From: an uncultured Clostridia bacterium
GTDB taxonomy: Bacteria > Bacillota > Clostridia > Oscillospirales > CAG-272
Assembly (NCBI GenBank): GCA_947588825.1
Contig: CANPZU010000004.1
Location: 21,649 to 85,648 of the forward strand
Direction of reading: 5' to 3'
DNA: 64,000 bases
Made by a program: the position numbers and the translations under genes
The notes under the pieces: generated by a model
The model's input: the letters and a program-made list of their open reading frames with translations, nothing else
Databases searched by the model: none
Told to the model about the DNA's origin: nothing
In this document: piece by piece, positions 2,269-56,412 of the stretch
How the letters are laid out: each line of letters begins with the position of its first letter
How positions within the stretch are numbered: position 1 is the stretch's first letter

Positions 2269-3357
2269 ATGCTGAATTTATCAGATGTCTTTAACTCTGC
2301 ATCGGTTGCCATGAACAGAACCGAAGTAGAGAGCAACAGAATCCCGTATCTTGGGGAGGCATACTTCCCGAGCAGGAAGAAGATGGGGCTTGACCTCAAG
2401 TGGATTAAGATTCACAAGGGACTTGGAGTGGCGCTGAAGCCGTCCACATTCGACGCGATCCCGACTGTACGTCCGAGGGGCGGCGCAAAGCTCACGCAGG
2501 AAGAGATGCCCTTCTTCCGCGAGTCCATGATTATCAAGGAAAAGGACATGATGGAGCTTGCCCGTATTCAGGACAGCAACGACCCGTACTTACAGCCGGT
2601 GATTGATTCCATCTACGACGACACCAATACGCTGATTGACGGCGCTGACATCGCTGTTGAGAAGATGAGGATGCAGTTACTTGCCCCGACAGACGGCGAC
2701 CTCAAGATTACCATCGGCGCGGCGGACAACACGTCCTACATCTACGACTATGACGCGGACAACAAGTGGTCGGAAAAACACTTTACGTCAAATCTTTCCG
2801 GCGCGACGTGGGACAATCCGACGACCGCAAAGCCGCTGACCGATATCCGCAAGGGTATTCAGTACCTCGCAAGCATCGGATACACCGGCGCGACCATCCT
2901 TGGGAACAGCACGACGTTCGACTACCTGCTTGACTGCGACCAAGTCAAGAACGCACTTGTCTCCATCACCGGGCAGACCATCGGATTCCTTGACACAGAG
3001 ACGGTCGAGGAAGTCCTGCGCAGGAAGCTCAAGATTGACTGGCTTAGTTATGACAAGATGTATACGGACTACGACGGAGTGGAGAAGAAGTTCTACCCGG
3101 ACAACTACGTGACAATCATCGGAAACGGGCAGCTTGGCAACACTTGGTACGGCACTACGCCAGAGGAATTGACGATGATGAACTTCATGGGCATGCCACA
3201 GCCGCCGGTTGACATTTCCGTGCTCGACCGCGGCGTGGCGGTTGCCGTGAAGTCCGAGTACAAGCCCGCGCATACCGTAACCACGACGGCTTCGCAGATT
3301 GTACTTCCGTCGTTCGAGGGCATGGACGGAATCTACGTAATCAAAGTAAAGTCGTAA
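2269..3357 (+). CDS. Major capsid protein, lambda gpE-like family
   Basis: 362 aa. The N-terminal region (NRIPYLGEAYFP) and C-terminal region (GQLGNTWYGTTPEE) resemble my recollection of the Phage_cap_E family. The RBS is GGAAGGAG. Confidence 0.8.
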   Translation: MLNLSDVFNSASVAMNRTEVESNRIPYLGEAYFPSRKKMGLDLKWIKIHKGLGVALKPSTFDAIPTVRPRGGAKLTQEEMPFFRESMIIKEKDMMELARIQDSNDPYLQPVIDSIYDDTNTLIDGADIAVEKMRMQLLAPTDGDLKITIGAADNTSYIYDYDADNKWSEKHFTSNLSGATWDNPTTAKPLTDIRKGIQYLASIGYTGATILGNSTTFDYLLDCDQVKNALVSITGQTIGFLDTETVEEVLRRKLKIDWLSYDKMYTDYDGVEKKFYPDNYVTIIGNGQLGNTWYGTTPEELTMMNFMGMPQPPVDISVLDRGVAVAVKSEYKPAHTVTTTASQIVLPSFEGMDGIYVIKVKS

Positions 3358-13735: not shown

Positions 13736-14557
13736 ATGGGAGGATTTAAGAACGTGGACGAAATTAAAAGTTTTGAAAATAAAGAATTTGGTAAAGTGAG
13801 AACAATTCGAAAAAACAGAAAGATTTTGTTTTGCGGGCGCGATGTAGCAACAGCTTTGGGGTATGTAGACACAAAGAAAGCGTTGACTCAGCACTGCAAA
13901 GAAGATGGGGTGGTGTTTTGCCCCCTCACCGACAAACTCGGCAGAACGCAGGAGGCAAAGTTTATTGACGAGGGAAATCTTTATCGGCTTATCGTACACA
14001 GCAAACTTCCATCAGCAGAAAAGTTTGAGCGATGGGTGTTTGATGAAGTGATACCGTCGGTCGTAAACAGCGGCGGCTATATCGCAGGTCAAGATAGTTT
14101 ATCGGACGATGAACTTATTGCAAGAGCTGTTTTGGTTGCACAAAAGAAGATTGCTGAAAAGGACAAGCGCATTGAAAAACTGGAAGCAGAAACGCTAGAG
14201 ATGAGCCAGACCATAGCAGAGATGCAACCGAAAGTGAACTACGTCGATGTAATCCTAAAGAGCAGGTCGACCGTCTGCACCACGCAGATTGCGCAGGACT
14301 ACGGCATGACCGCGAACAAATTCAATAAGATTCTGCGCGATATCGGCATCCAGAGGAAAGTAGGAAAGCAGTGGATTCTGTACCGACAGTATTTAGATCA
14401 GGGATATGTCCAGAGCGAGACGGTGGACATAACAAGGTCGAATGGCCTGCCGGACACAGTGATGCATACCAAGTGGACGCAGAAAGGTAGGCTCTTCCTG
14501 CATGAGAAGTTAAAGAAGAGCGGATACATACCGCTGATTGAGCAGTATAACATTTGA
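13736..14557 (+). CDS. Antirepressor (Bro-N domain plus KilA-C/ANT C-terminal domain)
   Basis: The N-terminal FENKEFGKVRTI...FCGRDVATALGY...GNLYRLI..SKLPSAEKF..WVFDEVIPS is Bro-N-like. The C-terminal half (NYVDVILKS...TTQIAQDYGM) is KilAC-like. Confidence 0.8.
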   Translation: MGGFKNVDEIKSFENKEFGKVRTIRKNRKILFCGRDVATALGYVDTKKALTQHCKEDGVVFCPLTDKLGRTQEAKFIDEGNLYRLIVHSKLPSAEKFERWVFDEVIPSVVNSGGYIAGQDSLSDDELIARAVLVAQKKIAEKDKRIEKLEAETLEMSQTIAEMQPKVNYVDVILKSRSTVCTTQIAQDYGMTANKFNKILRDIGIQRKVGKQWILYRQYLDQGYVQSETVDITRSNGLPDTVMHTKWTQKGRLFLHEKLKKSGYIPLIEQYNI

Positions 14558-14792: not shown

Positions 14793-15536
14793 ATGAATGG
14801 ATTGATAAGGATAAATGGACACGAAATAGAGGTCAAAGAATACAAAGGACAGAGAGTCGTAACATTCAAAGACATTGATACTGTGCACGAGAGACCAGAG
14901 GGTACGGCTCGTGCGACTTTTAATAGGTCGAAAAATCATTTTGTTGAGAATGAGGATTACTTCGTATGCGACGCGTACGAAGCAAAAAAATTGTTTGGAA
15001 TTATCGCACCGAATGGAATTGTCCTTATTGCGGAAGAAGGTTATTTGATGCTCGTCAAGCCGTTTGGGGACGATCTCGCATGGGACGTTCAGCGCAAGCT
15101 TGTCAAGGCATATTTCCGGGCAAATGATATATTTGAAAATATGTCACAGGAACTCAAGGCCGTTATCGTGGTAGACCAGAGGGTGACAGCGGTGGAGAAG
15201 CGCGTGGATTATCTCGAAAACGATATACCGCTTTACGGCTCGGAGGCAGACCAACTCAGCCGGATTGTGAAAAAGAAGGGCGTATCGGTTCTCGGGGGAA
15301 AAGGTAGCAACGCCTACAAAGACAATAAGCTCCGCTCGGAAGTTTATACGGACATATACAATCAAGTGAAAAGGGAATATGGGCTTTATGATGCAGACGG
15401 CAGGTTTGTGACATACAAGGCGCTGAAAAGGAAATATTTCCCCGGCTCGCTGAGATTGGTTGAGTCATACATTCCGCCGGAATACCTACAGGAAAAAATA
15501 AAGGACTATAACGCGCAATGCAGATTAGATGAATAG
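14793..15536 (+). CDS. ORF6N/ORF6C-domain antirepressor-type protein
   Basis: YKGQRVVTFKDIDTVHERPEGTAR is the ORF6N (KilA-N-like) signature. The C-terminal half (PLYGSEADQLSRIVKKKG) is ORF6C-like. Confidence 0.7.
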   Translation: MNGLIRINGHEIEVKEYKGQRVVTFKDIDTVHERPEGTARATFNRSKNHFVENEDYFVCDAYEAKKLFGIIAPNGIVLIAEEGYLMLVKPFGDDLAWDVQRKLVKAYFRANDIFENMSQELKAVIVVDQRVTAVEKRVDYLENDIPLYGSEADQLSRIVKKKGVSVLGGKGSNAYKDNKLRSEVYTDIYNQVKREYGLYDADGRFVTYKALKRKYFPGSLRLVESYIPPEYLQEKIKDYNAQCRLDE

Positions 15537-17575: not shown

Positions 17576-17833
17576 ATGAGAGAATACGAAAGAATAGCGG
17601 TTCTGAAGAACCAGATTAAGGAAATGGACGAGGACTTCGGCTTTTCCGTGAAGGATTTGCAGAAAATCAGCGGAAAACTTGTCGAAGCGCAGAGGGCAAA
17701 GGAACTCGGGCTGATTACGGACGAGGAAATGCGGCGCAAGCTGATATGGCTGATCGCAAGCCTTGAGAGCCTTGAGGAAAAACTGGAAACGTCACACTTC
17801 AACGGACAGCAGTTTTTGAAGGGGGTGGCGTGA
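17576..17833 (+). CDS. Hypothetical coiled-coil protein
   Basis: 85 aa, with RBS GAGAGGAAAA. Confidence 0.55.
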   Translation: MREYERIAVLKNQIKEMDEDFGFSVKDLQKISGKLVEAQRAKELGLITDEEMRRKLIWLIASLESLEEKLETSHFNGQQFLKGVA

Positions 17834-18174
17834 TGAACAGGGCGAGGGTGGAGAGCGCATTGCTCGAAATGGGAATGTCCATGAAGCCGCGCGGCTTTGA
17901 TTACATTTCCGACGCAGTTGTCCTTATGTCGGAATCAAAGGGCGGCAGGATAAATATGTACTTCCTCTACACGCTGATAGCGGAAAAGTACGGTACTGCG
18001 TGGACGTGCGTGGAAAGGGGCATCAGATACGCATTCGACAAAGTAAGGGGGAAAGAAAAGCACCGGGATGCCGTAGAGCATTACATAGGGATTGAGGATA
18101 AAACGAACACGGCTTCATTGAAGATGCTGTACCACGCCCTTAAGGTTGAGCAGGAAGGGGGCGCGGCGGCATGA
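17830..18174 (+). CDS. Spo0A C-terminal (DNA-binding) domain-like protein
   Basis: ...GFDYISDAVVLMSE...LYTLIAEKYGTAWTCVERGIRYAFDKV... follows the Spo0A_C pattern (G..Y...AI......LY..IA.....T...VERAIRHAI). Confidence 0.6.
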   Translation: MMNRARVESALLEMGMSMKPRGFDYISDAVVLMSESKGGRINMYFLYTLIAEKYGTAWTCVERGIRYAFDKVRGKEKHRDAVEHYIGIEDKTNTASLKMLYHALKVEQEGGAAA

Positions 18175-18392
18175 AGGATGGAATCCGGGACAATTACTAC
18201 TTGGCGAATGAGAGTTTGAGAAGCGCCGCGACCACTACCAAAATATGCAGAGATTACATCAAAGGGAAAAAGGCAAAGGCATTAGCAGATAGCGCGCTGA
18301 ATGACATTGAAGAGTACATCAAAAAGGCTCAAGAGCACTTAAAAATCCTTTGCGAACTGGCAGAAGCACAGAAAGGTGGTGCTGAGTCGTGA
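18171..18392 (+). CDS. Hypothetical helical protein
   Basis: A 73-aa ORF with overlapping start and stop codons on both sides. Confidence 0.5.
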   Translation: MKDGIRDNYYLANESLRSAATTTKICRDYIKGKKAKALADSALNDIEEYIKKAQEHLKILCELAEAQKGGAES

Positions 18393-18718
18393 GTAAGAGA
18401 AGGAAATTCACGTACCGCGAGAAATGCGAGGTGTACGCCCGGAGCAATGGGAGATGCGCAATCTGCGGAGAACATTTACAATTCAATAGAATGACGATAG
18501 ACCACAAGATTCCCCTGTCAAAGGGCGGCACAAATGCAATGAACAACCTGCAGGCGGCTTGCCTGTCCTGCAACCGATCAAAATGCGACATGACTCCTGC
18601 GGAGTTTTTCGGAAAGCTGATTTCGGTCGCCTGCAACAGCAAGATGCAGATTGCAAAGTATTGCATTGTGAAGATGCTCGGTTTAAATACAAAAGATGAA
18701 AGGGGAGTTGTGGCATGA
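18389..18718 (+). CDS. HNH endonuclease
   Basis: CAICGEHL...IDHKIPLSKGGTNAMNNLQAACLSCNRSK is a classic HNH motif. Confidence 0.85.
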   Translation: MSKRRKFTYREKCEVYARSNGRCAICGEHLQFNRMTIDHKIPLSKGGTNAMNNLQAACLSCNRSKCDMTPAEFFGKLISVACNSKMQIAKYCIVKMLGLNTKDERGVVA

Positions 18719-19482
18719 ATGATATAATTGTGAAGAACGTCGATGTTATGGGAGATATGGTTACAGCCGCAAAAGACATTGACGGAAATATATGGGTTGG
18801 AGTTAAATATATATGTGACGCTCTTGAAATGAGCGAGGGGCAAGTGAAACGCCAGATCAAAAACATTCATAATGATATGGTGTTTCAAGGGGGATCAAAT
18901 CAGATCCCCCTTCCGACAAACAGAGGAAGTCAGACAGTTTTTTGCATAAGGAATGATTTCATTCCGCTTTGGCTCGCAAGGATTAACATAACAGAGAAAA
19001 CAAGAAAAGAACGTCCAGAGTTTGCCGCAAAGCTTCTCGACTACCAACTCAAAGCCAAAGACATCCTCGCCGAAGCGTTCTATCCGAAGCAGACGCTCCC
19101 GACCACGACCGAGGGAAAGATACAGCTTCTCGCGCAGGGGAACGTCGAGCTGAACAAGAAAGTGGACACGCTGACGGAGCGCATTGACAAACTGGAAATG
19201 GATTTGCCGCTGTTCCCGTCCGAAGCCGAAGAGGTTTCCAATGCGGCAAAGCGGCGCGGAGTCGAGGTTCTGGGCGGCAAACGTTCGGCGGCATACCGCA
19301 ACAAGTCTATCCGGGCGAAAGTTTACCGTACGCTGTATTTGTATCTGAATTATAACTTCGGCACGAGGCGGTACAAGGAAATCAAGCGCGGAATGATGGA
19401 CAAAGCGGTCGAGATCGCGGAGACGTGGACGCCGCCGGAGTTTCTTGCGAGGGAGATTGCCGGGGAGAATTCGCAAAATTGA
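18715..19482 (+). CDS. Antirepressor-type protein (P22 AR N-terminal-like plus ORF6C-like)
   Basis: The N terminus reads WVGVKYICDALEMSEGQVKRQIKNI...NDFIPLWLARIN. The C terminus (LPLFPSEAEEVSNAAKRRG...) parallels the C terminus of the 14793 gene. Confidence 0.6.
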   Translation: MNDIIVKNVDVMGDMVTAAKDIDGNIWVGVKYICDALEMSEGQVKRQIKNIHNDMVFQGGSNQIPLPTNRGSQTVFCIRNDFIPLWLARINITEKTRKERPEFAAKLLDYQLKAKDILAEAFYPKQTLPTTTEGKIQLLAQGNVELNKKVDTLTERIDKLEMDLPLFPSEAEEVSNAAKRRGVEVLGGKRSAAYRNKSIRAKVYRTLYLYLNYNFGTRRYKEIKRGMMDKAVEIAETWTPPEFLAREIAGENSQN

Positions 19483-19491
19483 TTTTGTATA

Positions 19492-19520
19492 TTGAAATCG
19501 CGAAACGCATATGCTATAAT
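19492..19520 (+). promoter_or_regulatory. Consensus sigma-A promoter driving a short RNA
   Basis: TTGAAA (19492-97), 17-nt spacer, TATAAT (19515-20). Confidence 0.7.
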
Positions 19521-19526
19521 GCCGCT

Positions 19527-19600
19527 AGGCAAGAAAGGATAGTAAAACCTGCATAGTAGCGCAAAACGAAAACCCCGGAGGTGGCTTCTCCGGGATTTTC
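19527..19600 (+). ncRNA. Candidate ~70-nt sRNA (type I antitoxin-like)
   Basis: It runs between the consensus promoter and the terminator CCCGGAG-GTGGCTT-CTCCGGG followed by ATTTTCT (19574-19600). Nt 19533-62 match 24 of 30 positions of the antisense of the toxin-1 SD/start region (19716-45). Confidence 0.5.
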
Positions 19601-19650
19601 TATTCTCAATTTCGGCAGTGGGAGAGCTTAACCCCACAGGATAGTTGCCG

Positions 19651-19737
19651 CTATTCGCCGCCGTCTAACCATTTGATGATGTAGTGGCAAACTACACCAG
19701 CCGCAACAGCGGCGAGAAAAGATAGTAAGGCTTGCAT
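19651..19737 (-). CDS. Type I toxin-like hydrophobic peptide, 28 aa
   Basis: I translated it by hand as MQALLSFLAAVAAGVVCHYIIKWLDGGE. The RBS AAAGGGGG lies 5-7 nt upstream. It is not in the ORF track because it is under 60 aa. The aromatic-WL ending resembles Fst/SprA1/Lpt-type toxins. Confidence 0.6.
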   Translation of the reverse strand: MQALLSFLAAVAAGVVCHYIIKWLDGGE

Positions 19738-19781
19738 AATAGCACCCCCTTTCCTGCCAGTATAGGGGTGGCAACGAAACA

Positions 19782-19809
19782 ATTATATCATAAAAAGGGG
19801 AAATGGCAA
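19782..19809 (-). promoter_or_regulatory. Promoter for toxin-1 mRNA
   Basis: On the minus strand: TTGCCA, 16-nt spacer, TGaTATAAT (extended -10). Confidence 0.6.
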
Positions 19810-19822
19810 TGTTCAATTAATG

Positions 19823-19851
19823 TTGCAAATGGAACAAAGAAGTGGTAATAT
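19823..19851 (+). promoter_or_regulatory. Promoter for an RNA antisense to toxin 2
   Basis: TTGCAA, 17-nt spacer, TAATAT. It sits back to back with the toxin-1 promoter. Confidence 0.55.
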
Positions 19852-19891
19852 AAAAAGGGCACTATACGGCGGTGGTTGACCTCAGCCAGTA

Positions 19892-19932
19892 CAGAAAGCA
19901 CTAAGCCTTGGTCGGACTGTTAGTGCTTTCTG
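19892..19932. repeat. Perfect 13-bp inverted repeat (stem-loop) over the toxin-2 stop codon
   Basis: CAGAAAGCACTAA (19892-19904) pairs with TTAGTGCTTTCTG (19920-19932), with a 15-nt loop. Confidence 0.85.
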
Positions 19933-20006
19933 GAAACATTGAAGATTAAAGTCGCAAAGGCAATCAAAACCGCCGTATACGCGAACAAATCACCGTATGT
20001 AACCAT
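19920..20006 (-). CDS. Type I toxin-like peptide, 28 aa (TxpA/BsrG/holin-like-toxin type)
   Basis: I translated it by hand as MVTYGDLFAYTAVLIAFATLIFNVSRKH, with RBS AAAGGGGGA. The N terminus resembles M.TYE.L of TxpA/BsrG. The 5' UTR can sequester the SD (20014-20037). Confidence 0.6.
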   Translation of the reverse strand: MVTYGDLFAYTAVLIAFATLIFNVSRKH

Positions 20007-20075
20007 AAGCATTCCCCCTTTCATTAAATGAAAGAGGTCAGCCACAACCGTCCTCCCCGATAGCACCCAGACAAC

Positions 20076-20104
20076 ATTTTAATACAAATCAAATTCAAAA
20101 ACAA
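20076..20104 (-). promoter_or_regulatory. Possible promoter for toxin-2 mRNA
   Basis: On the minus strand: TTGTTT, 17-nt spacer, TAAAAT. Confidence 0.35.
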
Positions 20105-20114
20105 CAAGAAATTC

Positions 20115-20139
20115 GAGCGTCCTTCGGGGCGCTCTTTTT
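20115..20139 (+). terminator. Strong terminator with UUCG tetraloop
   Basis: GAGCGTCC-TTCG-GGGCGCTC followed by TTTTT. Confidence 0.85.
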
Positions 20140-20150
20140 GTGGAGGAAAT

Positions 20151-20450
20151 ATGTTCTGGAAAAGGAAGAAAAAAACACAAAATATGATAGATACGAGCAT
20201 AGAGGCGTACCGGGAACTTGGTATTAATTTAACCAAAGAGCAATTTGAGGATTTGGTTTGCATTAATCTGATGGCAAACAGCGAAGAGTGCAAAACGACC
20301 CCGACACATTGGGTTATGCTCCTTTTCAAATATCTCAATATATTACCACCCGAACTTGTGTGTGAAGTAAGCGATAACGAGTCCGCTGATGATTCCGAGA
20401 ATGTAGGAAACGACGTATTTCAAAAGCGATACGGAAAGCTTAAATACTGA
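20151..20450 (+). CDS. Hypothetical protein
   Basis: A 99-aa ORF with RBS GGAGGA. Its 3' ~100 nt overlap the convergent gene. Confidence 0.45.
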   Translation: MFWKRKKKTQNMIDTSIEAYRELGINLTKEQFEDLVCINLMANSEECKTTPTHWVMLLFKYLNILPPELVCEVSDNESADDSENVGNDVFQKRYGKLKY

Positions 20451-20687
20451 CTTTGCCTTTTTCTTGGCAGGGCTTACATAAGCGGCCTTTCCTTGCGGAA
20501 ATATGTGGAAAGAATCCGATCCGTTCATTGCAATATAGTTTTGAGATTCTAGGCTCTTGATAAAGGGAAGGCAATTGTTTGTTGTCATGCCGTATTCCTT
20601 TGCAAGTTTGGTAATGGTACAATCATCATATTCGTTGGCGAGCTTGATAGCCGCGCCGAGGAAATCATTATCATTCGTAATTTTCAT
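20343..20687 (-). CDS. wHTH-like protein with C-terminal TM helix
   Basis: The N-terminal sequence ITKLAKEYGMTTNNCLPFIKSLESQNYI is HTH-like. The C-terminal sequence YILGIISGLVIAYF is a TM helix. Confidence 0.55.
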   Translation of the reverse strand: MKITNDNDFLGAAIKLANEYDDCTITKLAKEYGMTTNNCLPFIKSLESQNYIAMNGSDSFHIFPQGKAAYVSPAKKKAKSVFKLSVSLLKYVVSYILGIISGLVIAYFTHKFGW

Positions 20688-21415: not shown

Positions 21416-24400
21416 ATGGCAAACGATGTAATTGATACCCTGTCGCTTGAAATTAATTCTTCGGCGAAGAATGCCTATGCTTCCATCGACGCATTACTCG
21501 GGAGGCTTAACAAACTTAACGGCGCGTTAAATGGAATTAACACAGGCAGGCTTAATAGCCTTTCAACAAGCGTTTCGAGACTAGGGCAATCTGTGAGTAC
21601 ATTCACACAGAATGTAAAAACCGCAGATTTTACCAGAATTGCAAGCGGCTTGAACAAGTTGGCTACTGTTGATTTTTCGGGGCTTGCGAATACGGCAGGT
21701 GCAATTCATAACCTTTCCAACAGCCTTACTGGATTAAATGGGATTTCTTTCGACGCGCAGGGTCTCACAAACCTCATTAACGGCGTATCAAAGTTAGGAA
21801 GGAAAACCGTTACTCAAGCGGCGCAAAATATACCGCAACTCACGACCGCACTTTCCGGGCTTGTGACACAATTAAACAGCATCGGAACTATAAATTTTGA
21901 TTTAACAAGTCTTTCAAACCTTGTATCTTCCGTGTCAAGGCTCGGTGGGAAAAACGCCGGAAATGCTCCGCAAAATATGCAGAACATCGCCAACGGACTT
22001 AAGAACATGATGGCTACGCTGTCGAAAGCGCCGAGGGTAAGCAACAATGTTATCCGTCTTGCGGAAGCAATGGGGCGTATCTCTTCCAATGGCTCTAGGG
22101 CAGGAGCGGCGGCGAGAAGTTTGTCTAGCAATATTCGGTCATTCGGCAACAGTGCAACGAAAACAGAAAAGAAAACAAGAAGCCTTGCGCTTTCTATCGG
22201 AAAGCTTGTTGCCGCTTTTTATGCAATAAAACGAATCGGAAAGGGACTATTTGAATCGGTTGAAAACTCAATGAATTATCTTGAGACTTTCAACTATTTT
22301 AATGCCGCGTTTAATCAAGTGGCGGATAAGGCGGCAGGTGAGTGGCAGGAAGCCGGTTATAAATCTGCGGAGGAATACGCAAACTCATTCAGCAAGAGGG
22401 CACGTGAACTTACCGCGAAAATGACCGGCTTTAATGTTGCCGATAACGGTCTTTTGGCGGAAACGGGCGGAGCATCGCTTGGAATGGACGCAAATATGCT
22501 CTTGAATTATCAAGCGACTTTCGGGCAGATTTCCTCTTCGATGGGGGTTGCGTCTGAAAATGCCTTGCGTCTATCTGACGCGCTGACGATGATCGGCGCA
22601 GACCTTGCGTCCGTGAGAAATGAAGATTTCTCGAAAGTATATGACAACTTAACATCCGGTATTGTCGGAATGAGCCGTGCGGTTGATAAGTACGGCGTAA
22701 ATATCAGAGTTGCCAATCTGGAACAACAGGCGCAGGCGCTCGGAATAAACGCGTCTGTCTCAGCGATGAGTCAAGCCGACAAGGCACTATTGAGAACTAT
22801 TACAATCCTAGACTCAACGCGCTATGCATGGGCAGATTTGTCGAAAACGATCAATATGCCTGCCAATCAGATAAGACTTTTAAAGCAGAACTTTGTTGCT
22901 TTGTCTCGCTCAATCGGAAACATTTTCTTGCCGATCGTGGCAAAAGTTTTGCCGTATCTGAACGCGATGACGATAGCGCTCCGCAGGCTTTTTGAGTTTA
23001 TCGGGAAACTGCTCGGCGTGGACAAAACGATAGGAGACTGGGGTTCTTCCGTCGCCGGTGGTTCTGATGCGCTTTCTGACGCTCTGGATTCTCTCGATAC
23101 CGACGTTCCGACGGATGGGGTGGACAATCTAAGCGATTCTCTTTCCAACGCAAAGGACAAGGCGAAAGAGCTTGAAAAGCGGCTTGCCTCTTGGGATGAA
23201 CTTGAGGTAATCAATCCAAAACAAGACTCCGTAGACGATTACAAATTACCGTCAATCGGAGACATGGCGGCAGATGCCGGACTTGGCGATTATTCAGACA
23301 TTCTGGGCGGCGCTCTTGATGATATTTTGTCTGAATATGAAAAAGCGTGGAACGATGCTTTTAATAGCCTTGACAATAAGGCCGTTAAGATAGCGAACGA
23401 AATAGAAAAAGCGTTCAAGAGCCTTGCAAAAACAGCAAAACCAACAACAGAGGCAATTAAAAAACTCTGGAATGAGGGGTTGAAAAAACTCGGGAACTTC
23501 ACATGGGATACCATAAAGGATTTCTGGAATAATTTCCTGAAGCCGATGGGAACATGGATGCTATCCGACGACGCAGGACTTCCGAGATTTTTCAATATTA
23601 CAAACGATTTACTCAACGAAATTGAATGGGATAGGCTGAATACGTCGCTTGAGAATTTCTTTACTTCCTTACAGAAGCCGGCAAAGTTTGTATGGACTTC
23701 TCTCATGGACTTCTACGAGAAGTTTTTGAAACCGATTTCTGTATGGACAATGAGCGAAGCTATCCCGGATTTGGTTGATGCCCTCACTGACTTTAACGAT
23801 AAGATTAAGTGGGATGAAATAAATGAAGCACTTTCGAATTTCTGGGAAGCGCTTGAGCCATTTGCGGAGTCTGTCGGTCGAGGGCTTGTAAATTTCTTTA
23901 AAGATTTGCTTTCTGTCGGTGCGGACTTTATCAATGCTACAGTACCGGACGGATTAAATTCCTTAGCGGACGCTATAAAGAAAATCAGCCCGGAGACTGC
24001 TGAAAAAATCGGAGAGGGAATCGGGAAGATTGCGCTTGCGCTTGCAGGATTTAAAGGGCTGAACAAGATATCTCAACTATTCGACAAAAAAGGTGCAATA
24101 GGGAAAATATTTGTTGAACTTGCAAAACATCCATACTTTACCATCGCATCTGGCGTGCTTGCAGTTGTCGGCGCTCTTGACAATTTCGGCATTATTGAAG
24201 TTGACTGGGAGTTTTTATATAACAAATTCAAAGATATTAAAGATATACTTGCCGATTTTGTAGATAAAATTGATTGGCAAACAATAAAAGACGGAATCGG
24301 GAAATTTTGGAGCGCATTTCAGCCGTTTGCCGAGGGTTTTGCGGACGGATTTATCGATGCGCTTGATAAGATAGTAAATGGCATAGGCGCTCCATTAATC

Positions 24401-26566
24401 AACGGAATTGCATCCGCGTTTGAAAAGCTTGCGTCGGCACTAGATATGCTTCCGGACGATATGCTTGAGGGAATCGGAAAGGGGCTTGGTGAGATCGCCG
24501 CGGCGCTGTTGGCGATAAAAGGCGCTAAATCCGCAATCAAATGGTTGGGCGAACTCGGAGCATTTAAAGGACTTGGCTCCGGCACAGCGGCCGCAGGAGC
24601 CGGAAGCTCGGCGGGGGCAGGGACGGCCGGAGGCGCGGCCGCCGCAGGTGGCGCGGCGCAGGCGGCAAAAACAGCGAAAGCCGGAAAAGGGTTACTTGAT
24701 GCTTTCAAATCTTTCGGCATGAATGCCGGAGGAACTATTCTTTTTCAAGATACGCTTTCCGGCATTGCCAAACAGCTTGACGGAACCGCAAAGAAGTCAA
24801 ACGAAGCAAAAGACGCACTCGGACTCGTGGCAAAGGCAATGTCTGATGTCGGAATAGAGGGAGACACTTTCGGCGGAAAACTTGGAAATGCGCTTATGCC
24901 GGTAGACGAATTCACGAGTGGTGGAGCGACAGAATTCCTTGCGGCATTTGATGAAATGGTTACGCGCTTCACAAATGCCGGAGGCTCTGCGGACGAATTA
25001 AAAGCAAAATTATCGACGGCCTTGTCCGAGAACACAACACTTTCGCAGGAATACGCTTCCGCTATTCAAGAGTACATCGGCGGAACAGGAGACACGTTCA
25101 CGACAGCCGCGACGGAATACGAGACAGCTTCCGCGCAGATGCAGACGGCAACTTCTGGAATAAGCGGAATGTTGCAGAGCATCAGTGACAACTCGTGGGG
25201 AGCAGATCAACAACTTTCCCTTGTTGCAGGAGCTTTACAGTCGCTTTCTGACAAGGGCTTGCTTTCAAATCCGCAGTTGTCCACTTTGAACGAAATGCTC
25301 TTGAATGCACAAAATTCGGGCGGTGGTTTGGCTCCGATTTTGCAGAACTTGTCCGACGAATTATACAATGCCGGGATTAACGCCCCGACATTTTTTGATG
25401 CCTTAAAGGACGGCTCTTATTACGTGGGTGACAAACTTCCGTCTGATTTCAGCACATTTATCGGGAGTCTGCAAAACGTAAAAACAGAGGCAGACAACGC
25501 ATCAACCGCGACGCAGAACGTCGGCACAAGCGCATTTAACTCAATTGGCAATTTAGTCAGCTTTATCGCGCAAGCCGGATTTATGGCAGGCGGTCTCGGC
25601 TCGATCAAGACCGGGAGCGAAGAAGCTGGAACTAAAATTTCCGAGTTGAGCGGAAACATTGTAAACTTTGTGAATGGTCTCGCCACAAACGCGCAGACGG
25701 TATTCGACGAGGGCAAAAAGACCGGCGAGAACTACCCGGCAGGATTCGCACAGGGCATAGAGGGCAAGAATCAGGATGTCAAAGACGCGTCGCAGGAGAT
25801 GGTCGATACTGCCACCGATACCGTAAAGACCGGGCTTGATATCAACTCGCCATCGGGCGTTGCGGAAGGGTTCGGCGAGAATTACGGTCAAGGGCTGATA
25901 AACGGCATAAAGGCAAAGCTGACCGACCTCGGAACTGTTATGGACAGCGTGATTGACAAGCTGAAAAAACCGTTTGACAACCTTGCGCAGAACTTCCAGA
26001 CCGTCGGCAAAAACCTCATGGTTTCCTTGCAGAACGGCATCAACTCACAGCACATTTCCCTGCCGAGGATTTCCGTGAGCTGGACAAAGTACTTTATGGG
26101 GAACAGCCAGTTTTCCATCCCGAATTTCAGTCTTAGCTATCTTGCAAAGGGCGGTCTGATTACCGACGAGATGCTTGCCATCATGGGCGAGAACCGGCGC
26201 AAGGAAGCCGTCCTGCCGCTTGAGAACCAGAAAACCATGTCGATGATCGCGGACGCTATCGTGGACAGGATGCCGCAGAGACTTGACATCGGCAACATCG
26301 AGATAAACCGCTCGCAGGCTCCATACGTCACGACGGCGAACATCCCGCGGAGCACGTATTCCGACAGCTTCGGCGACGATATGCGCCGGGATATCGCGGC
26401 AATCTCGTCGAACACGTTCAACAATAACACGAACATCGGGCAGGCGGTCAAGGAAGCGCTGAACGGCATGGCGGTCGTGGCGGACGGCTATATTATCGGC
26501 TACCTGCAGAGCAAGAACATGGAATCTCGGAACCAGAACGGCGGTCTCGGGATTTTTGAAGTGTAG
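21416..26566 (+). CDS. Tail tape measure protein
   Basis: 1716 aa. It is helical and low-complexity with Ala/Gly-rich hydrophobic segments, and it lies in the expected position downstream of the chaperones apart from the inserted island. Confidence 0.9.
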   Translation: MANDVIDTLSLEINSSAKNAYASIDALLGRLNKLNGALNGINTGRLNSLSTSVSRLGQSVSTFTQNVKTADFTRIASGLNKLATVDFSGLANTAGAIHNLSNSLTGLNGISFDAQGLTNLINGVSKLGRKTVTQAAQNIPQLTTALSGLVTQLNSIGTINFDLTSLSNLVSSVSRLGGKNAGNAPQNMQNIANGLKNMMATLSKAPRVSNNVIRLAEAMGRISSNGSRAGAAARSLSSNIRSFGNSATKTEKKTRSLALSIGKLVAAFYAIKRIGKGLFESVENSMNYLETFNYFNAAFNQVADKAAGEWQEAGYKSAEEYANSFSKRARELTAKMTGFNVADNGLLAETGGASLGMDANMLLNYQATFGQISSSMGVASENALRLSDALTMIGADLASVRNEDFSKVYDNLTSGIVGMSRAVDKYGVNIRVANLEQQAQALGINASVSAMSQADKALLRTITILDSTRYAWADLSKTINMPANQIRLLKQNFVALSRSIGNIFLPIVAKVLPYLNAMTIALRRLFEFIGKLLGVDKTIGDWGSSVAGGSDALSDALDSLDTDVPTDGVDNLSDSLSNAKDKAKELEKRLASWDELEVINPKQDSVDDYKLPSIGDMAADAGLGDYSDILGGALDDILSEYEKAWNDAFNSLDNKAVKIANEIEKAFKSLAKTAKPTTEAIKKLWNEGLKKLGNFTWDTIKDFWNNFLKPMGTWMLSDDAGLPRFFNITNDLLNEIEWDRLNTSLENFFTSLQKPAKFVWTSLMDFYEKFLKPISVWTMSEAIPDLVDALTDFNDKIKWDEINEALSNFWEALEPFAESVGRGLVNFFKDLLSVGADFINATVPDGLNSLADAIKKISPETAEKIGEGIGKIALALAGFKGLNKISQLFDKKGAIGKIFVELAKHPYFTIASGVLAVVGALDNFGIIEVDWEFLYNKFKDIKDILADFVDKIDWQTIKDGIGKFWSAFQPFAEGFADGFIDALDKIVNGIGAPLINGIASAFEKLASALDMLPDDMLEGIGKGLGEIAAALLAIKGAKSAIKWLGELGAFKGLGSGTAAAGAGSSAGAGTAGGAAAAGGAAQAAKTAKAGKGLLDAFKSFGMNAGGTILFQDTLSGIAKQLDGTAKKSNEAKDALGLVAKAMSDVGIEGDTFGGKLGNALMPVDEFTSGGATEFLAAFDEMVTRFTNAGGSADELKAKLSTALSENTTLSQEYASAIQEYIGGTGDTFTTAATEYETASAQMQTATSGISGMLQSISDNSWGADQQLSLVAGALQSLSDKGLLSNPQLSTLNEMLLNAQNSGGGLAPILQNLSDELYNAGINAPTFFDALKDGSYYVGDKLPSDFSTFIGSLQNVKTEADNASTATQNVGTSAFNSIGNLVSFIAQAGFMAGGLGSIKTGSEEAGTKISELSGNIVNFVNGLATNAQTVFDEGKKTGENYPAGFAQGIEGKNQDVKDASQEMVDTATDTVKTGLDINSPSGVAEGFGENYGQGLINGIKAKLTDLGTVMDSVIDKLKKPFDNLAQNFQTVGKNLMVSLQNGINSQHISLPRISVSWTKYFMGNSQFSIPNFSLSYLAKGGLITDEMLAIMGENRRKEAVLPLENQKTMSMIADAIVDRMPQRLDIGNIEINRSQAPYVTTANIPRSTYSDSFGDDMRRDIAAISSNTFNNNTNIGQAVKEALNGMAVVADGYIIGYLQSKNMESRNQNGGLGIFEV

Positions 26567-55328: not shown

Positions 55329-55483
55329 AGAACTGCGGAAACTGTAAATACCACGTCCATGAGGACATAGACGACGGATACGTGTGCGTGAACTCGGACA
55401 GCGAACACTGCGCGGACTGGACGGATGATGATTACTCATGCGAGGAATGGGTAGAAAAGGAAGACAGAAAGTTGGAGGGGTAG
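55325..55483 (+). CDS. Small Cys-rich ORF (52 aa)
   Basis: I translated it by hand as MKNCGNCKYH...CVN...C..W. It overlaps the upstream stop. Confidence 0.4.
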   Translation: MKNCGNCKYHVHEDIDDGYVCVNSDSEHCADWTDDDYSCEEWVEKEDRKLEG

Positions 55484-55485
55484 CT

Positions 55486-56412
55486 TTGTCTGACGTTGAA
55501 TGGATTAAGATTACGGTTGGAATGTTTGACAACAGGAAGATAAAGCACATAAGGAAACTGCCGGAGGGAAACAATATCGTCCTCATATGGGTGATGTTGC
55601 TGACGATGGCCGGAAGATGCAACGCAAGCGGATTTATATTTCTAACTGAAAATATTCCGTACACAACGAAGATGCTTGCAGATGAGCTCGGATTTGACGA
55701 GAGTGTGATTATGGTCGCGCTCGAGATACTTGAGAAATTTGACATGATACGAAGAGACGGAGATTTGCTCTCAATTCCCGGTTGGGAGGAGCATCAGAAC
55801 ACGGAGGGGCTTGAAAAAGTAAGAGAACAGACAAGAAAAAGGGTGTCGGAATATAGGGAAAAACAGAGAAAACAGGCAGAATTGCTTGAATGTAACGTTA
55901 CATGTAACGTTACAGAAACGTTACGTAACGCTACTGTAACGCAACAGAATAAGAATAAGAATATAGATAAAGAAAAAGAAGAAGAAAAAGATATATTAAC
56001 TATTTCTAACGAAATAGTTTGTCGGAAACAATCGCGGGAAATCATAGAAAGATGGAACAAATTACAAGATGTTGGCATAAAACCTGTGTCCCGTATTGCC
56101 GGAAACTCGGAAAGAAACGAGAGGTTAAAAGCCAGAATCAGACAGTATGGCATGGAAAAAGTTCTTTATGCGATCGAAAAGATACGCGAAAGCGATTTCC
56201 TGCAGGGGAAAAACCGGGACGGTTGGGCTATCACATTTGACTGGTTTGTCAAGCCGAATAACTTCCCAAAAGTGCTTGACGGTAATTATGACAACAGGAG
56301 CGGAACAAAAAGCTATCAGAGCCAGACAAAACAGATGCTCGACAGCAGTTACGAGATGATGGGTGACTGGGCGAGAAAGAGAATGGAGGGGGACGGAGAA
56401 AATGACACCTAA
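55486..56412 (+). CDS. Phage replisome organiser (N-terminal domain family)
   Basis: WIKITVGMFDNRKIKHIRKLPEGNNIVLIWVMLLTMAGRCN is the Phage_rep_org_N signature. The TTG start follows the RBS GGAGGGG. Confidence 0.7.
   Translation: MSDVEWIKITVGMFDNRKIKHIRKLPEGNNIVLIWVMLLTMAGRCNASGFIFLTENIPYTTKMLADELGFDESVIMVALEILEKFDMIRRDGDLLSIPGWEEHQNTEGLEKVREQTRKRVSEYREKQRKQAELLECNVTCNVTETLRNATVTQQNKNKNIDKEKEEEKDILTISNEIVCRKQSREIIERWNKLQDVGIKPVSRIAGNSERNERLKARIRQYGMEKVLYAIEKIRESDFLQGKNRDGWAITFDWFVKPNNFPKVLDGNYDNRSGTKSYQSQTKQMLDSSYEMMGDWARKRMEGDGENDT
55891..55942. repeat. Iteron cluster (GTAACG / AACGTTAC repeats), probable origin inside the organiser gene
   Basis: TGTAACGTTACATGTAACGTTACAGAAACGTTACGTAACGCTACTGTAACG was read directly. 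Confidence 0.7.

What the first reader, a model, noticed from the sequence alone, without database searches (positions are those of the whole stretch)
19492..20140. Unannotated double type I toxin-antitoxin-like locus inside the accessory island
Seen in the sequence:
- Two 28-codon minus-strand ORFs, both below the ORF-track cut-off, have strong AAAGGGGG Shine-Dalgarno sites.
- Toxin 1 (19737..19651) encodes MQALLSFLAAVAAGVVCHYIIKWLDGGE.
- Toxin 2 (20006..19920) encodes MVTYGDLFAYTAVLIAFATLIFNVSRKH.
- The surrounding ~650 bp is packed with near-consensus promoters on both strands: 19492-19520 (+), 19782-19809 (-) and 19823-19851 (+).
- The locus also holds two strong terminators and a perfect 13-bp stem covering the toxin-2 stop codon.
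- The + promoter at 19492 would make a ~70-nt RNA. Its nt 19533-62 match 24/30 positions (27/30 counting G:U pairs) of the antisense of the toxin-1 SD, start and first codons.
- That RNA overlaps a 9-codon relic copy of the toxin N terminus (MQVLLSFLA stop).
- The + promoter at 19823 would make an RNA fully antisense to toxin 2, ending at the UUCG terminator at 20115-39.
- The toxin-2 leader can sequester its own SD (CCTCTTTCATT/AATGAAAGGGG).

Established knowledge: Fst/SprA1-like and TxpA/BsrG-like toxins with antisense RNAs are common in Firmicutes prophages and stabilise them.

Inference: these two are functional toxin/antitoxin pairs, one of them with a trans-acting antitoxin derived by duplication.
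Basis: partly seen in the sequence, partly recalled or inferred. Interest (0 to 1): 0.7.

Follow-up and report, generated by a model that had tools for sequence, protein, structure and literature searches.

The report
Two small toxin/antisense-RNA modules in a prophage
Two neighbouring, independently mobile mini-genes in a gut-bacterial prophage each encode a 28-residue membrane peptide opposed by a small antisense RNA; both look like unannotated relatives of known type I toxin-antitoxin systems, though toxicity itself is untested.

Summary
One correction: the + promoter at 19823 is only 8/12 plus an extended -10.

Module 1 (19492-19809) has the Enterococcus par/Fst layout:
- Convergent promoters and a shared bidirectional terminator.
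- A ~75-nt RNA whose 5' part pairs with the toxin SD/start through a direct repeat (-44 kcal/mol).

About 70 related loci, mostly Lachnospiraceae genomes, plus gut-phage records including inoviruses, carry the same cassette. The RNA-RNA pairing co-varies: -37.7 kcal/mol for cognate pairs against -19.4 for non-cognate pairs. The peptide carries the Fst signature but stays below every curated HMM cut-off, and public sources leave it unnamed.

Module 2 (19823-20139) belongs to an orphan family, MVTYGDLF + transmembrane stretch + basic tail. It was found in about 50 distinct loci, mostly viral contigs; in the two examined it sits between repressor and integrase. Shared features:
- A sequestered SD.
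- A bidirectional terminator containing the stop codon.
- A strong convergent promoter.
- A conserved pairing between the 5' leader and the 3' extension of the toxin transcript.

Both are best read as new members of the type I toxin-antitoxin kind. Transcripts and toxicity are untested.

The parts
19492..19520 (+). Promoter of the module-1 antisense RNA ('RNA II'): TTGAAA-17-TATAAT with TG
   Evidence: Promoter scan scored it 11/12. The -10 region GCATTATAGCATATGC is conserved in relatives, and its 16-mer retrieved 120 loci.
19527..19601 (+). Predicted RNA II, about 75 nt: an unstructured 5' part of about 40 nt that is antisense to the toxin-1 translation initiation region, followed by a terminator hairpin
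   Evidence: Fold. Nt 19527-19563 pair with 19746..19710: 31 pairs, -44.3 kcal/mol. Across 67 loci the cognate duplex averages -37.7 kcal/mol against -19.4 for non-cognate pairs.
19525..19560 (-). Direct-repeat copy of the toxin-1 start region. It includes the relic ORF MQVLLSFLA* at 19554..19525 and is the template of the RNA II 5' part.
   Evidence: 26/32 identity to 19743..19712; translation of the relic ORF.
19569..19600 (.). Bidirectional intrinsic terminator shared by RNA I and RNA II (stem 19574-19594, A-run on one side and T-run on the other)
   Evidence: Terminator scan and folds. 61 of 69 family loci have a perfect hairpin here, 56 of them with both flanking runs, and the 5' arm occurs in 55 distinct sequences.
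19651..19737 (-). tox1 ORF, 28 aa, MQALLSFLAAVAAGVVCHYIIKWLDGGE: a transmembrane helix followed by invariant K-W and an acidic tail
   Evidence: ORF list. A family of 68 distinct peptides was recovered. Codon-position entropy is 0.92/0.40/1.01. GRAVY is 1.11.
19745..19752 (-). tox1 Shine-Dalgarno AAAGGGGG, predicted to pair with the upstream ACCCCU
   Evidence: RNA I fold. Pairing probability of the SD core is 0.93-1.0 in the window; the family mean is 0.78 against 0.63 after shuffling the leader.
19560..19775 (-). Predicted toxin-1 mRNA ('RNA I'), about 215 nt. Its 5' GUUGCC pairs with GGCAAC just after the stop codon.
   Evidence: Fold gives -82.8 kcal/mol, z -3.81. The 5'-hexamer/post-stop hexamer pairing is present in 29/32 members of the short-tail subfamily, in three co-varying sequence types.
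19782..19809 (-). tox1 promoter TTGCCA-16-TATAAT with TG
   Evidence: Promoter scan scored it 11/12; conserved in alignment A1.
19823..19851 (+). Promoter of the module-2 antisense RNA: TTGCAA-17-TAATAT with extended -10 TGg
   Evidence: 8/12 plus TG. Relatives carry 11-12/12 promoters at the equivalent place, 90-96 nt after the stop codon. Homology with L131 ends at this promoter.
19856..19889 (-). 3' extension of the tox2 transcript. It is complementary to the transcript's own 5' leader (the 3' arm of a panhandle) and is followed by a T5 run at 19856..19852. On the + strand the same DNA encodes the 5' end of the antisense RNA.
   Evidence: Duplex with 20069..20028 is -39.7 kcal/mol. Family z-scores are mostly -2.7 to -6.9. 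The toxin-strand version is the more stable in 24/25 loci.
19892..19932 (.). Perfect 13-bp hairpin with the tox2 stop codon in one arm. It is the homologue of the bidirectional terminator of the family, but its U-runs are weak in this lineage.
   Evidence: A compensatory change GCACU/AGUGC to GCGCU/AGCGC occurs in close relatives. Distant relatives have the same design with different sequences.
19920..20006 (-). tox2 ORF, 28 aa, MVTYGDLFAYTAVLIAFATLIFNVSRKH
   Evidence: ORF list. The family has 13 distinct peptides in 49 distinct loci. Codon-position entropy is 0.74/0.40/1.08, against a flat profile in the leader.
20014..20037 (-). tox2 SD AAAGGGGG (20021..20014), sequestered by the anti-SD CCUCUUUCAUU (20037..20027)
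   Evidence: A 10-bp hairpin appears in the MFE and centroid structures. SD pairing probability is 0.80.
20028..20069 (-). tox2 mRNA 5' leader (the 5' arm of the panhandle); predicted transcription start near 20069
20076..20104 (-). Candidate tox2 promoter TTGTTT-17-TAAAAT (weak)
   Evidence: 8/12; conserved in L131. Relatives have toxin-strand promoter candidates scoring 7-11/12 at a comparable distance.
20115..20139 (+). Strong terminator (UUCG loop, T5) at the outer edge of module 2. It is oriented to stop the + strand antisense RNA (long form about 280 nt) and to shield the toxin from read-through.
   Evidence: Terminator scan. It forms the left border of the block shared with L131. The 285-nt RNA folds with z -5.35.

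Best explanation
The 650-bp region holds two independent type I toxin-antitoxin-like modules set tail to head in the accessory region of a tailed prophage.

Module 1 (19492-19809) works like the Enterococcus par/Fst system.
- A promoter at 19809..19782 makes a ~215-nt mRNA, RNA I.
- RNA I has its SD sequestered by a 5' stem, and its 5' end pairs just behind the stop codon.
- It encodes a 28-residue Fst-like membrane peptide.
- A convergent promoter at 19492-19520 makes a ~75-nt RNA II that shares the bidirectional terminator with RNA I.
- The single-stranded 5' part of RNA II is transcribed across a duplicated copy of the toxin start region. It therefore pairs with the SD edge, the AUG and the first nine codons and blocks translation.

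Module 2 (19823-20139) encodes an unrelated 28-residue peptide, MVTYGDLF + transmembrane stretch + basic tail.
- The mRNA has a hairpin-sequestered SD.
- Its leader pairs with a 3' extension lying beyond the stop-codon hairpin, forming a panhandle.
- A convergent promoter starts an antisense RNA exactly at the end of that 3' extension.
- This RNA is fully complementary to the 3' arm and the stop-codon hairpin. In this lineage it probably also covers the whole ORF, up to the terminator at 20139.
- Inferred consequence: pairing opens the panhandle and creates an RNase III substrate, so the toxin mRNA is destroyed or kept silent.

What is shown: the sequence anatomy, conservation, coding periodicity, co-variation of the pairings, and strand asymmetry.

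What is inferred: the transcripts, toxicity, the mode of repression, and a role in prophage maintenance.
For: Module 1:
- The whole cassette is conserved in gut inoviruses and faecal phage contigs.
- 72 of 127 matches to the RNA II -10 16-mer, mostly in Lachnospiraceae genomes, have a 28-35 aa ORF with a GGAGGTG-type SD. In full-length loci it starts about 200-240 nt upstream.
- K22 and W23 are invariant.
- Cognate RNA I/RNA II duplexes average -37.7 kcal/mol, against -19.4 for non-cognate pairs and -16.4 for shuffled sequences. The cognate RNA II is the best partner in 56/67 loci and within the top five in all 67.
- The window duplex is -44.3 kcal/mol.
- In L125 the toxin N terminus and the repeat changed together, giving -49.2 kcal/mol.
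- The bidirectional terminator is conserved with 55 different arm sequences.
- SD sequestration and 5'-end pairing are supported.
- Sub-threshold hits to NF033608 (Fst) and NF047374 (C. difficile type I toxin) occur in 13 and 15 of 68 members.

Module 2:
- It occurs alone in L131, and with a different module-1 variant in L125.
- The family was recovered from genomes, a metagenome and about 60 IMG/VR contigs.
- All share the SD, a stop codon inside a bidirectional terminator, and a convergent promoter; most relatives score 11-12/12, one 9/12, and the window lineage 8/12.
- Leader/3'-extension complementarity has z -2.7 to -6.9 in nearly all representatives.
- That pairing is more stable on the toxin strand in 24/25 loci, with 2-13 G.U pairs.
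- A compensatory change occurs in the stop-codon stem.
- The ORF shows codon periodicity while the leader does not.
- In the two IMG/VR contigs examined (L152, L149) the module sits between a repressor-side gene (CI-like HTH repressor or ImmA/IrrE-type peptidase) and the integrase.

Context: the window is a tailed prophage with head, Ant, tape-measure and endolysin genes.
Against: - There is no expression or toxicity data.
- The window peptides hit no curated toxin model. Family members reach at most 17-21 bits in the rows where scores were listed, against cut-offs of 26 (Fst) and 60 (C. difficile toxin). Module-2 peptides give only faint hits.
- No Rfam family matches.
- The tox2 toxin promoter (8/12) and antisense promoter (8/12 plus TG) are weak in this lineage.
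- The stop-codon hairpin lacks good U-runs here, so the transcript ends are uncertain.
- The panhandle does not change predicted SD accessibility in the window lineage: 0.80 in every form. Its function is therefore inferred.
- One close relative, L128, pairs the same toxin 1 with a non-cognate RNA II at -16.2 kcal/mol.
- Representatives within subfamilies are not independent. Only about seven lineages of module 2 are truly distinct.
Confidence: 0.72

Rival explanations
1. Module 2 is a conserved small membrane peptide controlled by an antisense RNA, but the peptide is not a toxin. It could be, for example, a lysogeny-associated peptide acting in superinfection exclusion, as a holin/antiholin-like modulator, or as a ComI-like inhibitor. 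The RNA would then tune its level rather than protect the cell.
For: - No significant similarity to any toxin model.
- The faint hits include the non-toxin ComI (E 0.09).
- In the two IMG/VR contigs examined the module sits inside the lysogeny module, between repressor and integrase, where many non-toxic morons reside.
Against: - Size, hydrophobic core, basic tail, sequestered SD and a convergent promoter that in most relatives is stronger than the toxin promoter form the standard type I toxin pattern.
- One relative gives a faint hit to Hol_Tox and another to PepG1.
Confidence: 0.18
2. Module 2 is mainly a transcriptional device and the ORF is incidental. It would be a bidirectional terminator plus an antisense promoter that insulates or regulates flanking genes, such as read-through from the repressor gene into int.
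For: - In the two IMG/VR contigs examined the element lies in the repressor-integrase intergenic space, on the same strand.
- Its most conserved parts are RNA structures.
Against: - The peptide N terminus MVTYGDLF is invariant.
- ORF length stays at 25-29 codons.
- Codon-position entropy is 0.74/0.40/1.08, against a flat profile in the leader.
- A strong SD at 7-nt spacing is kept in all lineages.
- In the window and in L131 the module lies in quite different surroundings.
Confidence: 0.07
3. The small ORFs, promoters and hairpins are chance features of an AT-poor intergenic spacer after the antirepressor gene.
For: Short ORFs and promoter-like hexamers are frequent. expects about 5 promoter-like sites per 3 kb.
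Against: Both cassettes recur as units in dozens of unrelated genomes with co-varying pairings.
Confidence: 0.01

Closest known systems
par (RNA I / RNA II, Fst toxin) of Enterococcus faecalis pAD1, and the Fst/Ldr superfamily including SprA1/PepA1 (features taken from PMC7472228)
   Same: Module 1 shares:
- convergent promoters and a shared bidirectional terminator;
- an sRNA that pairs with the toxin SD/start through DNA direct repeats;
- a 5' stem sequestering the SD;
- pairing of the mRNA 5' end;
- a peptide of about 30 residues with a transmembrane helix, a conserved Trp at the helix end and a charged tail;
- location on mobile elements.
   Different: - There is one contiguous ~32-nt repeat that retains an ATG and nine codons, rather than two short repeats DRa and DRb.
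- The PxxxG motif is replaced by (A/T/S)VxxG or S.
- Scores stay below the PF13955 and NF033608 cut-offs.
- The hosts are Lachnospiraceae and their phages, inoviruses included.
- No U-turn motif is evident in the terminator loop.
Clostridioides difficile type I toxins CD2517.1 / CD0956.2 with RCd8-10 (NF047374; PMC5961336)
   Same: - Clostridial hosts, often in prophages, with convergent overlapping transcripts.
- Short and long antitoxin isoforms, which parallels the possible ~85-nt and ~280-nt forms of the module-2 RNA.
- 15 of 68 module-1 family members give weak N-terminal hits.
   Different: - The C. difficile toxins are 50-53 aa with a Lys-rich tail.
- Scores here are 21 bits against a cut-off of 60.
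- The antitoxins there act through an extended 3' overlap, not through a direct repeat.
bsrG/SR4 and txpA/RatA of Bacillus subtilis prophage regions, and SprG1/SprF1 (PMC8309996)
   Same: Module 2 shares:
- a prophage location;
- a small hydrophobic peptide with a basic C terminus;
- a convergent sRNA overlapping the 3' end of the toxin mRNA;
- a sequestered SD.
RNase III-mediated decay is the expected outcome.
   Different: - There is no significant sequence similarity: Hol_Tox 13.2 bits against 23.3, PepG1 14.2 against 70, and only in relatives.
- The stop codon lies inside a bidirectional terminator.
- The leader pairs with a 3' extension that is the sRNA target.
hok/sok fold-back inhibition and the AapA1/IsoA1 long-distance 5'-3' interaction (from my own knowledge, not tested here)
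   Same: The toxin mRNA is closed by pairing between its 5' and 3' ends while the SD is sequestered.
   Different: In those systems the antisense RNA binds the 5' region after 3' trimming. Here the antisense RNA is encoded opposite the 3' arm itself.

Membership tests
par/Fst-type type I TA (module 1) | Convergent promoters for the toxin mRNA and the sRNA | tested here: met
   Both promoters score 11/12 with TG. Both are conserved in relatives.
par/Fst-type type I TA (module 1) | Shared bidirectional intrinsic terminator | tested here: met
   Stem 19574-19594 with an A-run and a T-run. 56 of 69 family loci have both runs, and the arms occur in 55 distinct sequences.
par/Fst-type type I TA (module 1) | Direct repeats that make the sRNA complementary to the toxin translation initiation region | tested here: met
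   26/32 repeat; 31-pair duplex of -44.3 kcal/mol. Cognate duplexes average -37.7 against -19.4 for non-cognate pairs. It is a single contiguous repeat rather than DRa plus DRb.
par/Fst-type type I TA (module 1) | Intramolecular 5' stem-loop sequestering the SD, and a helix sequestering the mRNA 5' end | tested here: met
   Fold, z -3.81. SD pairing probability is 0.93-1.0 in the window; the family mean is 0.78 against 0.63 for controls. The 5' hexamer pairs with a post-stop hexamer in 29/32 loci, in three co-varying types.
par/Fst-type type I TA (module 1) | U-turn (YUNR) motif in the terminator loop of the toxin RNA | tested here: inconclusive
   The RNA I loop AAGCCAC shows no obvious YUNR. 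The review notes that many homologues lack it.
Fst/Ldr toxin superfamily (module 1 peptide) | Hydrophobic transmembrane helix, conserved Trp between the helix and a charged C terminus | tested here: met
   W23 and K22 are invariant; L24 and D25 are at least 90% conserved across 68 peptides. GRAVY is 1.11. Signature as stated in PMC7472228.
Fst/Ldr toxin superfamily (module 1 peptide) | P/D/S/TxxxG(C) motif in the helix | tested here: inconclusive
   Many members have T/S-V-x-x-G followed by xxC. The window peptide has A-V-A-A-G-V-V-C, and a subfamily has S in place of G.
Fst/Ldr toxin superfamily (module 1 peptide) | Score above the curated HMM cut-off (PF13955 Fst_toxin, NF033608 type_I_tox_Fst) | tested here: not met
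   The window peptide gives no hit. For the family: NF033608 matches 13/68 members, best E 1.2e-4, listed scores up to 17.1 bits against a cut-off of 26; PF13955 matches 3/68, E 0.029.
C. difficile type I toxin (NF047374) | Score above the cut-off; 50-53 aa with a Lys-rich tail | tested here: not met
   Best score is 21.3 bits against 60, aligned over the N-terminal 17-20 residues only. The peptides are 28-35 aa with acidic or mixed tails.
TxpA/BsrG/Hol-Tox/SprG toxins (module 2 peptide) | Score above the curated HMM cut-off (PF16935, NF041589) | tested here: not met
   The window peptide gives no hit. Relatives score Hol_Tox 13.2 bits against 23.3 and PepG1 14.2 against 70.
Type I TA with a 3'-overlapping antisense RNA (module 2) | Convergent sRNA promoter downstream of the toxin ORF, with overlap at the mRNA 3' end | tested here: met
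   By prediction only. The -10 ends 68 nt after the stop codon in the window and 90-96 nt after it, at 9-12/12 (mostly 11-12/12), in relatives outside the window lineage.
Type I TA (both modules) | Peptide is toxic when over-produced and is neutralised by its RNA | not testable with these tools
   Requires expression experiments.
Type I TA (both modules) | Both RNAs are actually transcribed, with the antitoxin less stable or in excess | not testable with these tools
   No transcriptome data were available. Promoter strength favours the antisense RNA in most module-2 relatives.

The most novel reading that the evidence does not exclude
Module 2 represents a previously undescribed class of type I-like module found in temperate phages of gut Firmicutes, lying between the repressor and integrase genes in the two phage contigs examined. 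In this class the antisense RNA does not touch the ribosome-binding region. It targets the 3' arm of a 5'-3' panhandle of the toxin transcript and the stop-codon terminator. Antitoxin loss or excess would then switch the fate of the mRNA, and toxin expression would be coupled to the lysogeny/induction state of the prophage.
Probability: 0.25. Interest if true: 0.65.

Novelty: new member of a known kind. Interest (0 to 1): 0.45.

Why it matters
Type I toxin-antitoxin loci escape annotation because the ORFs fall below gene-caller limits and the families diverge quickly.

This finding yields two sets of sequences from which detection models could be built for the dominant gut Firmicutes and their phages:
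- An Fst/par-like family. Public sources either give it no name or call it 'hypothetical protein', and it also occurs in filamentous phages.
- An orphan MVTYGDLF family, found between the repressor and integrase genes in the two temperate-phage contigs examined.

If functional, these modules would help explain prophage and inovirus retention in Lachnospiraceae. They would also give natural, co-varying RNA-RNA pairs for studying antisense specificity. They could serve as selection or containment parts for gut commensals that are hard to manipulate genetically.

Tried and rejected
- Pfam, NCBIfam and Rfam scans of the window peptides and region gave nothing meaningful.
- A profile of the module-1 family against PDB sequences gave only a chance 'KWLD' match in a U-box protein. 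Fst and PepA1 structures were not retrieved.
- The search for related loci and the search for homologous proteins refuse 28-aa queries. I worked round this with extended ORFs and degenerate DNA patterns.
- tblastn of tox2 against phage records found nothing. Against the module-1 loci it also found nothing, so the two modules are not generally linked.
- phmmer of tox2 against 1.84 billion representatives found only its own cluster.
- The looser genome scan returned mostly chance matches in proB-like genes.
- RNAalifold on 35 RNA II sequences returned no consensus because the loop lengths misalign. I replaced it with per-sequence hairpin detection.
- Hypothesis that the module-2 sRNA 5' domain pairs with the toxin translation initiation region, as in par: rejected, z about 0 in most lineages.
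- Hypothesis that the panhandle opens the SD and the sRNA re-closes it: seen only in some lineages (L132, L195, the L149 group) and not in the window lineage.
- An exact reverse-complement test for the anti-SD was too strict to be useful.
- Full-text searches for the peptide motifs found no paper.
Full report
OBSERVATION.
- The two minus-strand ORFs (19737..19651 and 20006..19920) encode the stated 28-residue peptides.
- Each has AAAGGGGG seven bases before the ATG.
- The promoter scan returned 19492-19520 (+) and 19809-19782 (-), both 11/12 with a TG extension. It counted 11 promoter-like sites in 3 kb against 5.0 +/- 2.3 in shuffles.
- The scan did not return the + promoter at 19823-19851. 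It is TTGCAA-17-TAATAT, 8/12, with an extended -10 (TGgTAATAT).
- Terminators at 19574-19594 and 20115-20134 were found.
- The 13-bp perfect stem is 19892-19904 / 19920-19932 and contains the tox2 stop codon.
- The relic ORF MQVLLSFLA* lies at 19554..19525.

CONTEXT. The window is a tailed phage or prophage. It carries:
- a major head protein (2269-3357);
- three Ant-type antirepressors (13736-14557, 14793-15536, 18715-19482);
- an HNH nuclease and a Spo0A_C-domain protein;
- the region under study;
- a tape measure protein (21416-26566), an endolysin (40079-42328) and a DnaD-like loader (55438-56412).

MODULE 1, 19492-19809.

Distribution.
- tblastn against phage records found toxin-1 relatives in three gut inoviruses ('bajarodino virus' 68, 15, 29) and in human faecal phage contigs. 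In the inovirus records the ORF itself is not annotated, though an adjacent or opposite-strand CDS overlaps it in two of the three.
- Aligning these with the window showed that the whole cassette is conserved, not just the ORF. This covers the toxin promoter, leader, SD, ORF, terminator and the opposing promoter.
- The conserved -10 region of the opposing promoter (GGCATTATAGCATATG) was used as a probe.
- In 72 of 127 matches a 28-35 codon ORF with a GGAGGTG/GGGGGTG SD lies upstream; where the full upstream sequence was held it starts about 200-240 nt upstream.
- The 68 distinct peptides give the consensus MExxxSFxVAVxAGVxCHYIxKWLDxDxxxN, with K22 and W23 invariant.

Coding evidence. Codon-position entropy is 0.92/0.40/1.01, as expected for a translated hydrophobic peptide.

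RNA II.
- The predicted RNA (19527-19601) has an unstructured 5' part of about 40 nt and a terminator hairpin.
- Its nt 1-37 pair with the toxin mRNA from the 3' edge of the SD through the AUG and nine codons (19746..19710). The duplex has 31 pairs and -44.3 kcal/mol.
- The cause is a 26/32 direct repeat.
- Across 67 distinct loci the cognate duplex averages -37.7 kcal/mol, against -19.4 for non-cognate pairs and -16.4 for shuffled RNA. The cognate RNA is the best partner in 56 loci and among the top five in all 67.
- A close relative of the window phage (L125) carries a different toxin variant (MEYFIAFL...). Its repeat changed in concert, giving -49.2 kcal/mol.

Terminator and RNA I.
- The terminator is flanked by an A-run and a T-run. 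It is present as a perfect hairpin in 61/69 loci, with 55 different arm sequences.
- The predicted RNA I (19775..19560) folds with z -3.81. ACCCCU pairs with the SD, and the 5' GUUGCC pairs with GGCAAC just after the stop codon.
- The 5'-end pairing occurs in 29/32 members of the short-tail subfamily, in three co-varying versions.
- SD pairing probability is 0.93-1.0 in the window. The family mean is 0.78 against 0.63 for shuffled leaders.

Comparison with par. These are, feature for feature, the elements the Weaver review lists for par/Fst loci: convergent promoters, a bidirectional terminator, direct repeats, a 5' stem-loop over the SD, an upstream helix, and a transmembrane helix followed by a conserved Trp and a charged tail (PMC7472228).

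Membership by HMM is not met.
- The window peptide hits nothing.
- Among family members, 13/68 touch NF033608 (Fst), with listed scores up to 17.1 bits against a cut-off of 26.
- 15/68 touch NF047374 (C. difficile type I toxin), with at most 21 bits against 60.
- 3/68 touch PF13955.
- Rfam has no match.
- Of 42 database homologues of the extended ORF, five are labelled 'hypothetical protein' and the rest carry no name; none has a Pfam domain.
- No paper holds the peptide motifs.

Conclusion for module 1: it works like par and is a divergent, unannotated branch of the Fst-type kind.

MODULE 2, 19823-20139.

Independence from module 1.
- Gene-call databases hold only near-identical copies.
- Their contigs (L125-L131) show the module is a separate unit. 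L126-L128 have the same double locus. L125 has the same module 2 beside a different module-1 variant.
- L131 has module 2 alone. Homology there runs from the terminator at 20140 to about 19825, that is, to the -35 of the + promoter.
- The stop-codon stem carries a compensatory change, GCACU/AGUGC to GCGCU/AGCGC.

Wider family.
- Degenerate DNA patterns for MVTYGDLF(A) found distant members in an Oscillospiraceae MAG, in Ca. Pseudolachnospira and in a metagenome.
- They also found about 60 IMG/VR viral contigs.
- In total there are 13 distinct peptides in 49 distinct loci.

Shared features across all lineages:
- A strong SD with an upstream anti-SD.
- 25-29 codons ending in basic residues.
- A stop codon inside the 5' arm of a GC-rich hairpin. 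The Lys codons of the tail supply the A-run, and a T-run follows, so the hairpin is a bidirectional terminator.
- A convergent promoter of 11-12/12 in most relatives (one at 9/12) whose -10 ends 90-96 nt after the stop codon. In the window lineage it ends 68 nt after the stop and scores 8/12 plus TG.

Coding evidence. Codon-position entropy in the ORF is 0.74/0.40/1.08, against a flat 1.12/1.08/1.03 in the leader.

RNA pairing differs from module 1.
- The 5' domain of the antisense RNA is not complementary to the toxin initiation region; z is about 0 in most lineages.
- Instead, the toxin-strand sequence beyond the stop-codon hairpin is complementary to the toxin's own leader, with z -2.7 to -6.9 in nearly all representatives.
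- In the window this is 20069..20028 with 19889..19856, at -39.7 kcal/mol.
- The helix is more stable on the toxin strand than on the opposite strand in 24 of 25 representatives (-46.0 against -35.1 kcal/mol). It holds 2-13 G.U pairs that would be A.C mismatches on the other strand.
- The pairing is therefore selected in a toxin transcript that reads through the stop-codon hairpin.
- The antisense RNA starts at the end of this 3' arm and is perfectly complementary to it.

Transcript ends in this lineage.
- The hairpin has poor U-runs in both directions.
- The toxin RNA probably ends at the T5 run at 19856..19852.
- The antisense RNA probably ends at the strong terminator at 20115-20139, giving 285 nt with fold z -5.35.
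- In most relatives a ~100-nt sRNA ending at the bidirectional terminator is more likely.

SD accessibility. Predicted SD pairing stays near 0.8 in all forms of the window mRNA. I therefore infer that the panhandle serves stability or inertness, and that the antisense RNA acts by opening it and creating an RNase III substrate. I do not infer a translational switch. This part is inference.

Family assignment.
- The toxin matches no known family. The best results are Hol_Tox at 13.2 bits (cut-off 23.3), PepG1 at 14.2 (cut-off 70) and ComI at E 0.09, each in a single relative.
- In the two IMG/VR contigs examined the module sits on the integrase strand, between a CI-like repressor (L152) or an ImmA/IrrE-type peptidase (L149) and the integrase.

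COMPARISON AND VERDICT.
- Module 1 is a new, widespread member of the par/Fst kind.
- Module 2 is a new peptide family. Its layout resembles the 3'-overlapping prophage systems (bsrG/SR4, txpA/RatA, C. difficile RCd), with an added 5'-3' closure reminiscent of hok or AapA1 mRNAs. That last comparison rests on my own knowledge.
- Neither module is surprising in kind. Both were unannotated, and both are supported here by co-variation rather than resemblance alone.
- Toxicity, transcripts and any role in prophage maintenance remain to be shown.
- One unexplained point: contig L128 pairs the window's toxin 1 with a non-cognate RNA II, at -16.2 kcal/mol. This may be a chimeric short-read assembly or a real recombinant.

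Noticed in passing
L128 (Logan ERR10663772 contig), region homologous to window 19527-19570: This contig has the same toxin-1 ORF and leader as the window, but its RNA II 5' part belongs to another specificity type. The duplex is -16.2 kcal/mol, against -44.3 in the window. It is either a chimeric metagenome assembly or a natural recombinant with an unmatched antitoxin.
   Followed up: partly
L001-L003 (bajarodino viruses 68, 15, 29; circular inovirus genomes of 7-8.5 kb): Complete module-1-type cassettes sit in filamentous phage genomes from rodent faeces, and the records do not annotate the toxin ORF. A type I TA in an inovirus of Firmicutes would be a maintenance or exclusion module worth testing.
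   Followed up: partly
L230 386-499 (Streptococcus satellite phage Javan542, next to the integrase): An annotated 'hypothetical protein', MSDIAIELVLTIMAEVIAGLCLHYLCKWLDSKEDDRD, shares the HY.CKWLD motif of the module-1 family. It scores only 12.3 bits on the Fst model. It may link the Lachnospiraceae family to streptococcal Fst-like toxins.
   Followed up: partly
L152 and L149 (IMG/VR contigs), and other loci L149-L228: In the two contigs examined the module-2 family lies on the integrase strand. In L152 it sits between a CI-like HTH repressor and a serine recombinase; in L149 between an ImmA/IrrE-type peptidase and a tyrosine integrase. The toxin could be co-transcribed with lysogeny genes.
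   Followed up: partly
L073 (5065 and 6156); also L069, L120, L121: Some genomes carry two RNA II-type promoters within about 0.4-1.1 kb. L073 has two complete, different module-1 toxins (MPGSFILSVLASIVAYYICKWLDSEIDNN and MLDVTISFFIAIAAGVVCHLVCKWLDSKNIDN). This is a tandem array of specificity variants.
   Followed up: no
window 13736-14557, 14793-15536, 18715-19482: Three paralogous Ant-type antirepressor genes (ORF6N or P22_AR_N plus ORF6C) lie within 6 kb, between the head genes and the tape measure gene. With them are an HNH nuclease (18389-18718) and a Spo0A_C-domain protein (17830-18174). This is an unusually rich accessory island.
   Followed up: partly
window 19978..19963 (inside the tox2 ORF) against 19885..19860: A third copy of the repeat (UAUACGGCGGUUUUGA, codons 10-15 of tox2) is also complementary to the 3' extension, with 11 contiguous pairs by eye. 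The 3' arm could therefore pair alternatively with the ORF instead of the leader.
   Followed up: no
window 20151-20450 (+) and 20343-20687 (-): Two overlapping ORFs without any Pfam match lie directly beyond the module-2 terminator. The minus-strand ORF ends in a hydrophobic stretch (…VVSYILGIISGLVIAYFTHKFGW). Which of the two is real was not resolved.
   Followed up: no
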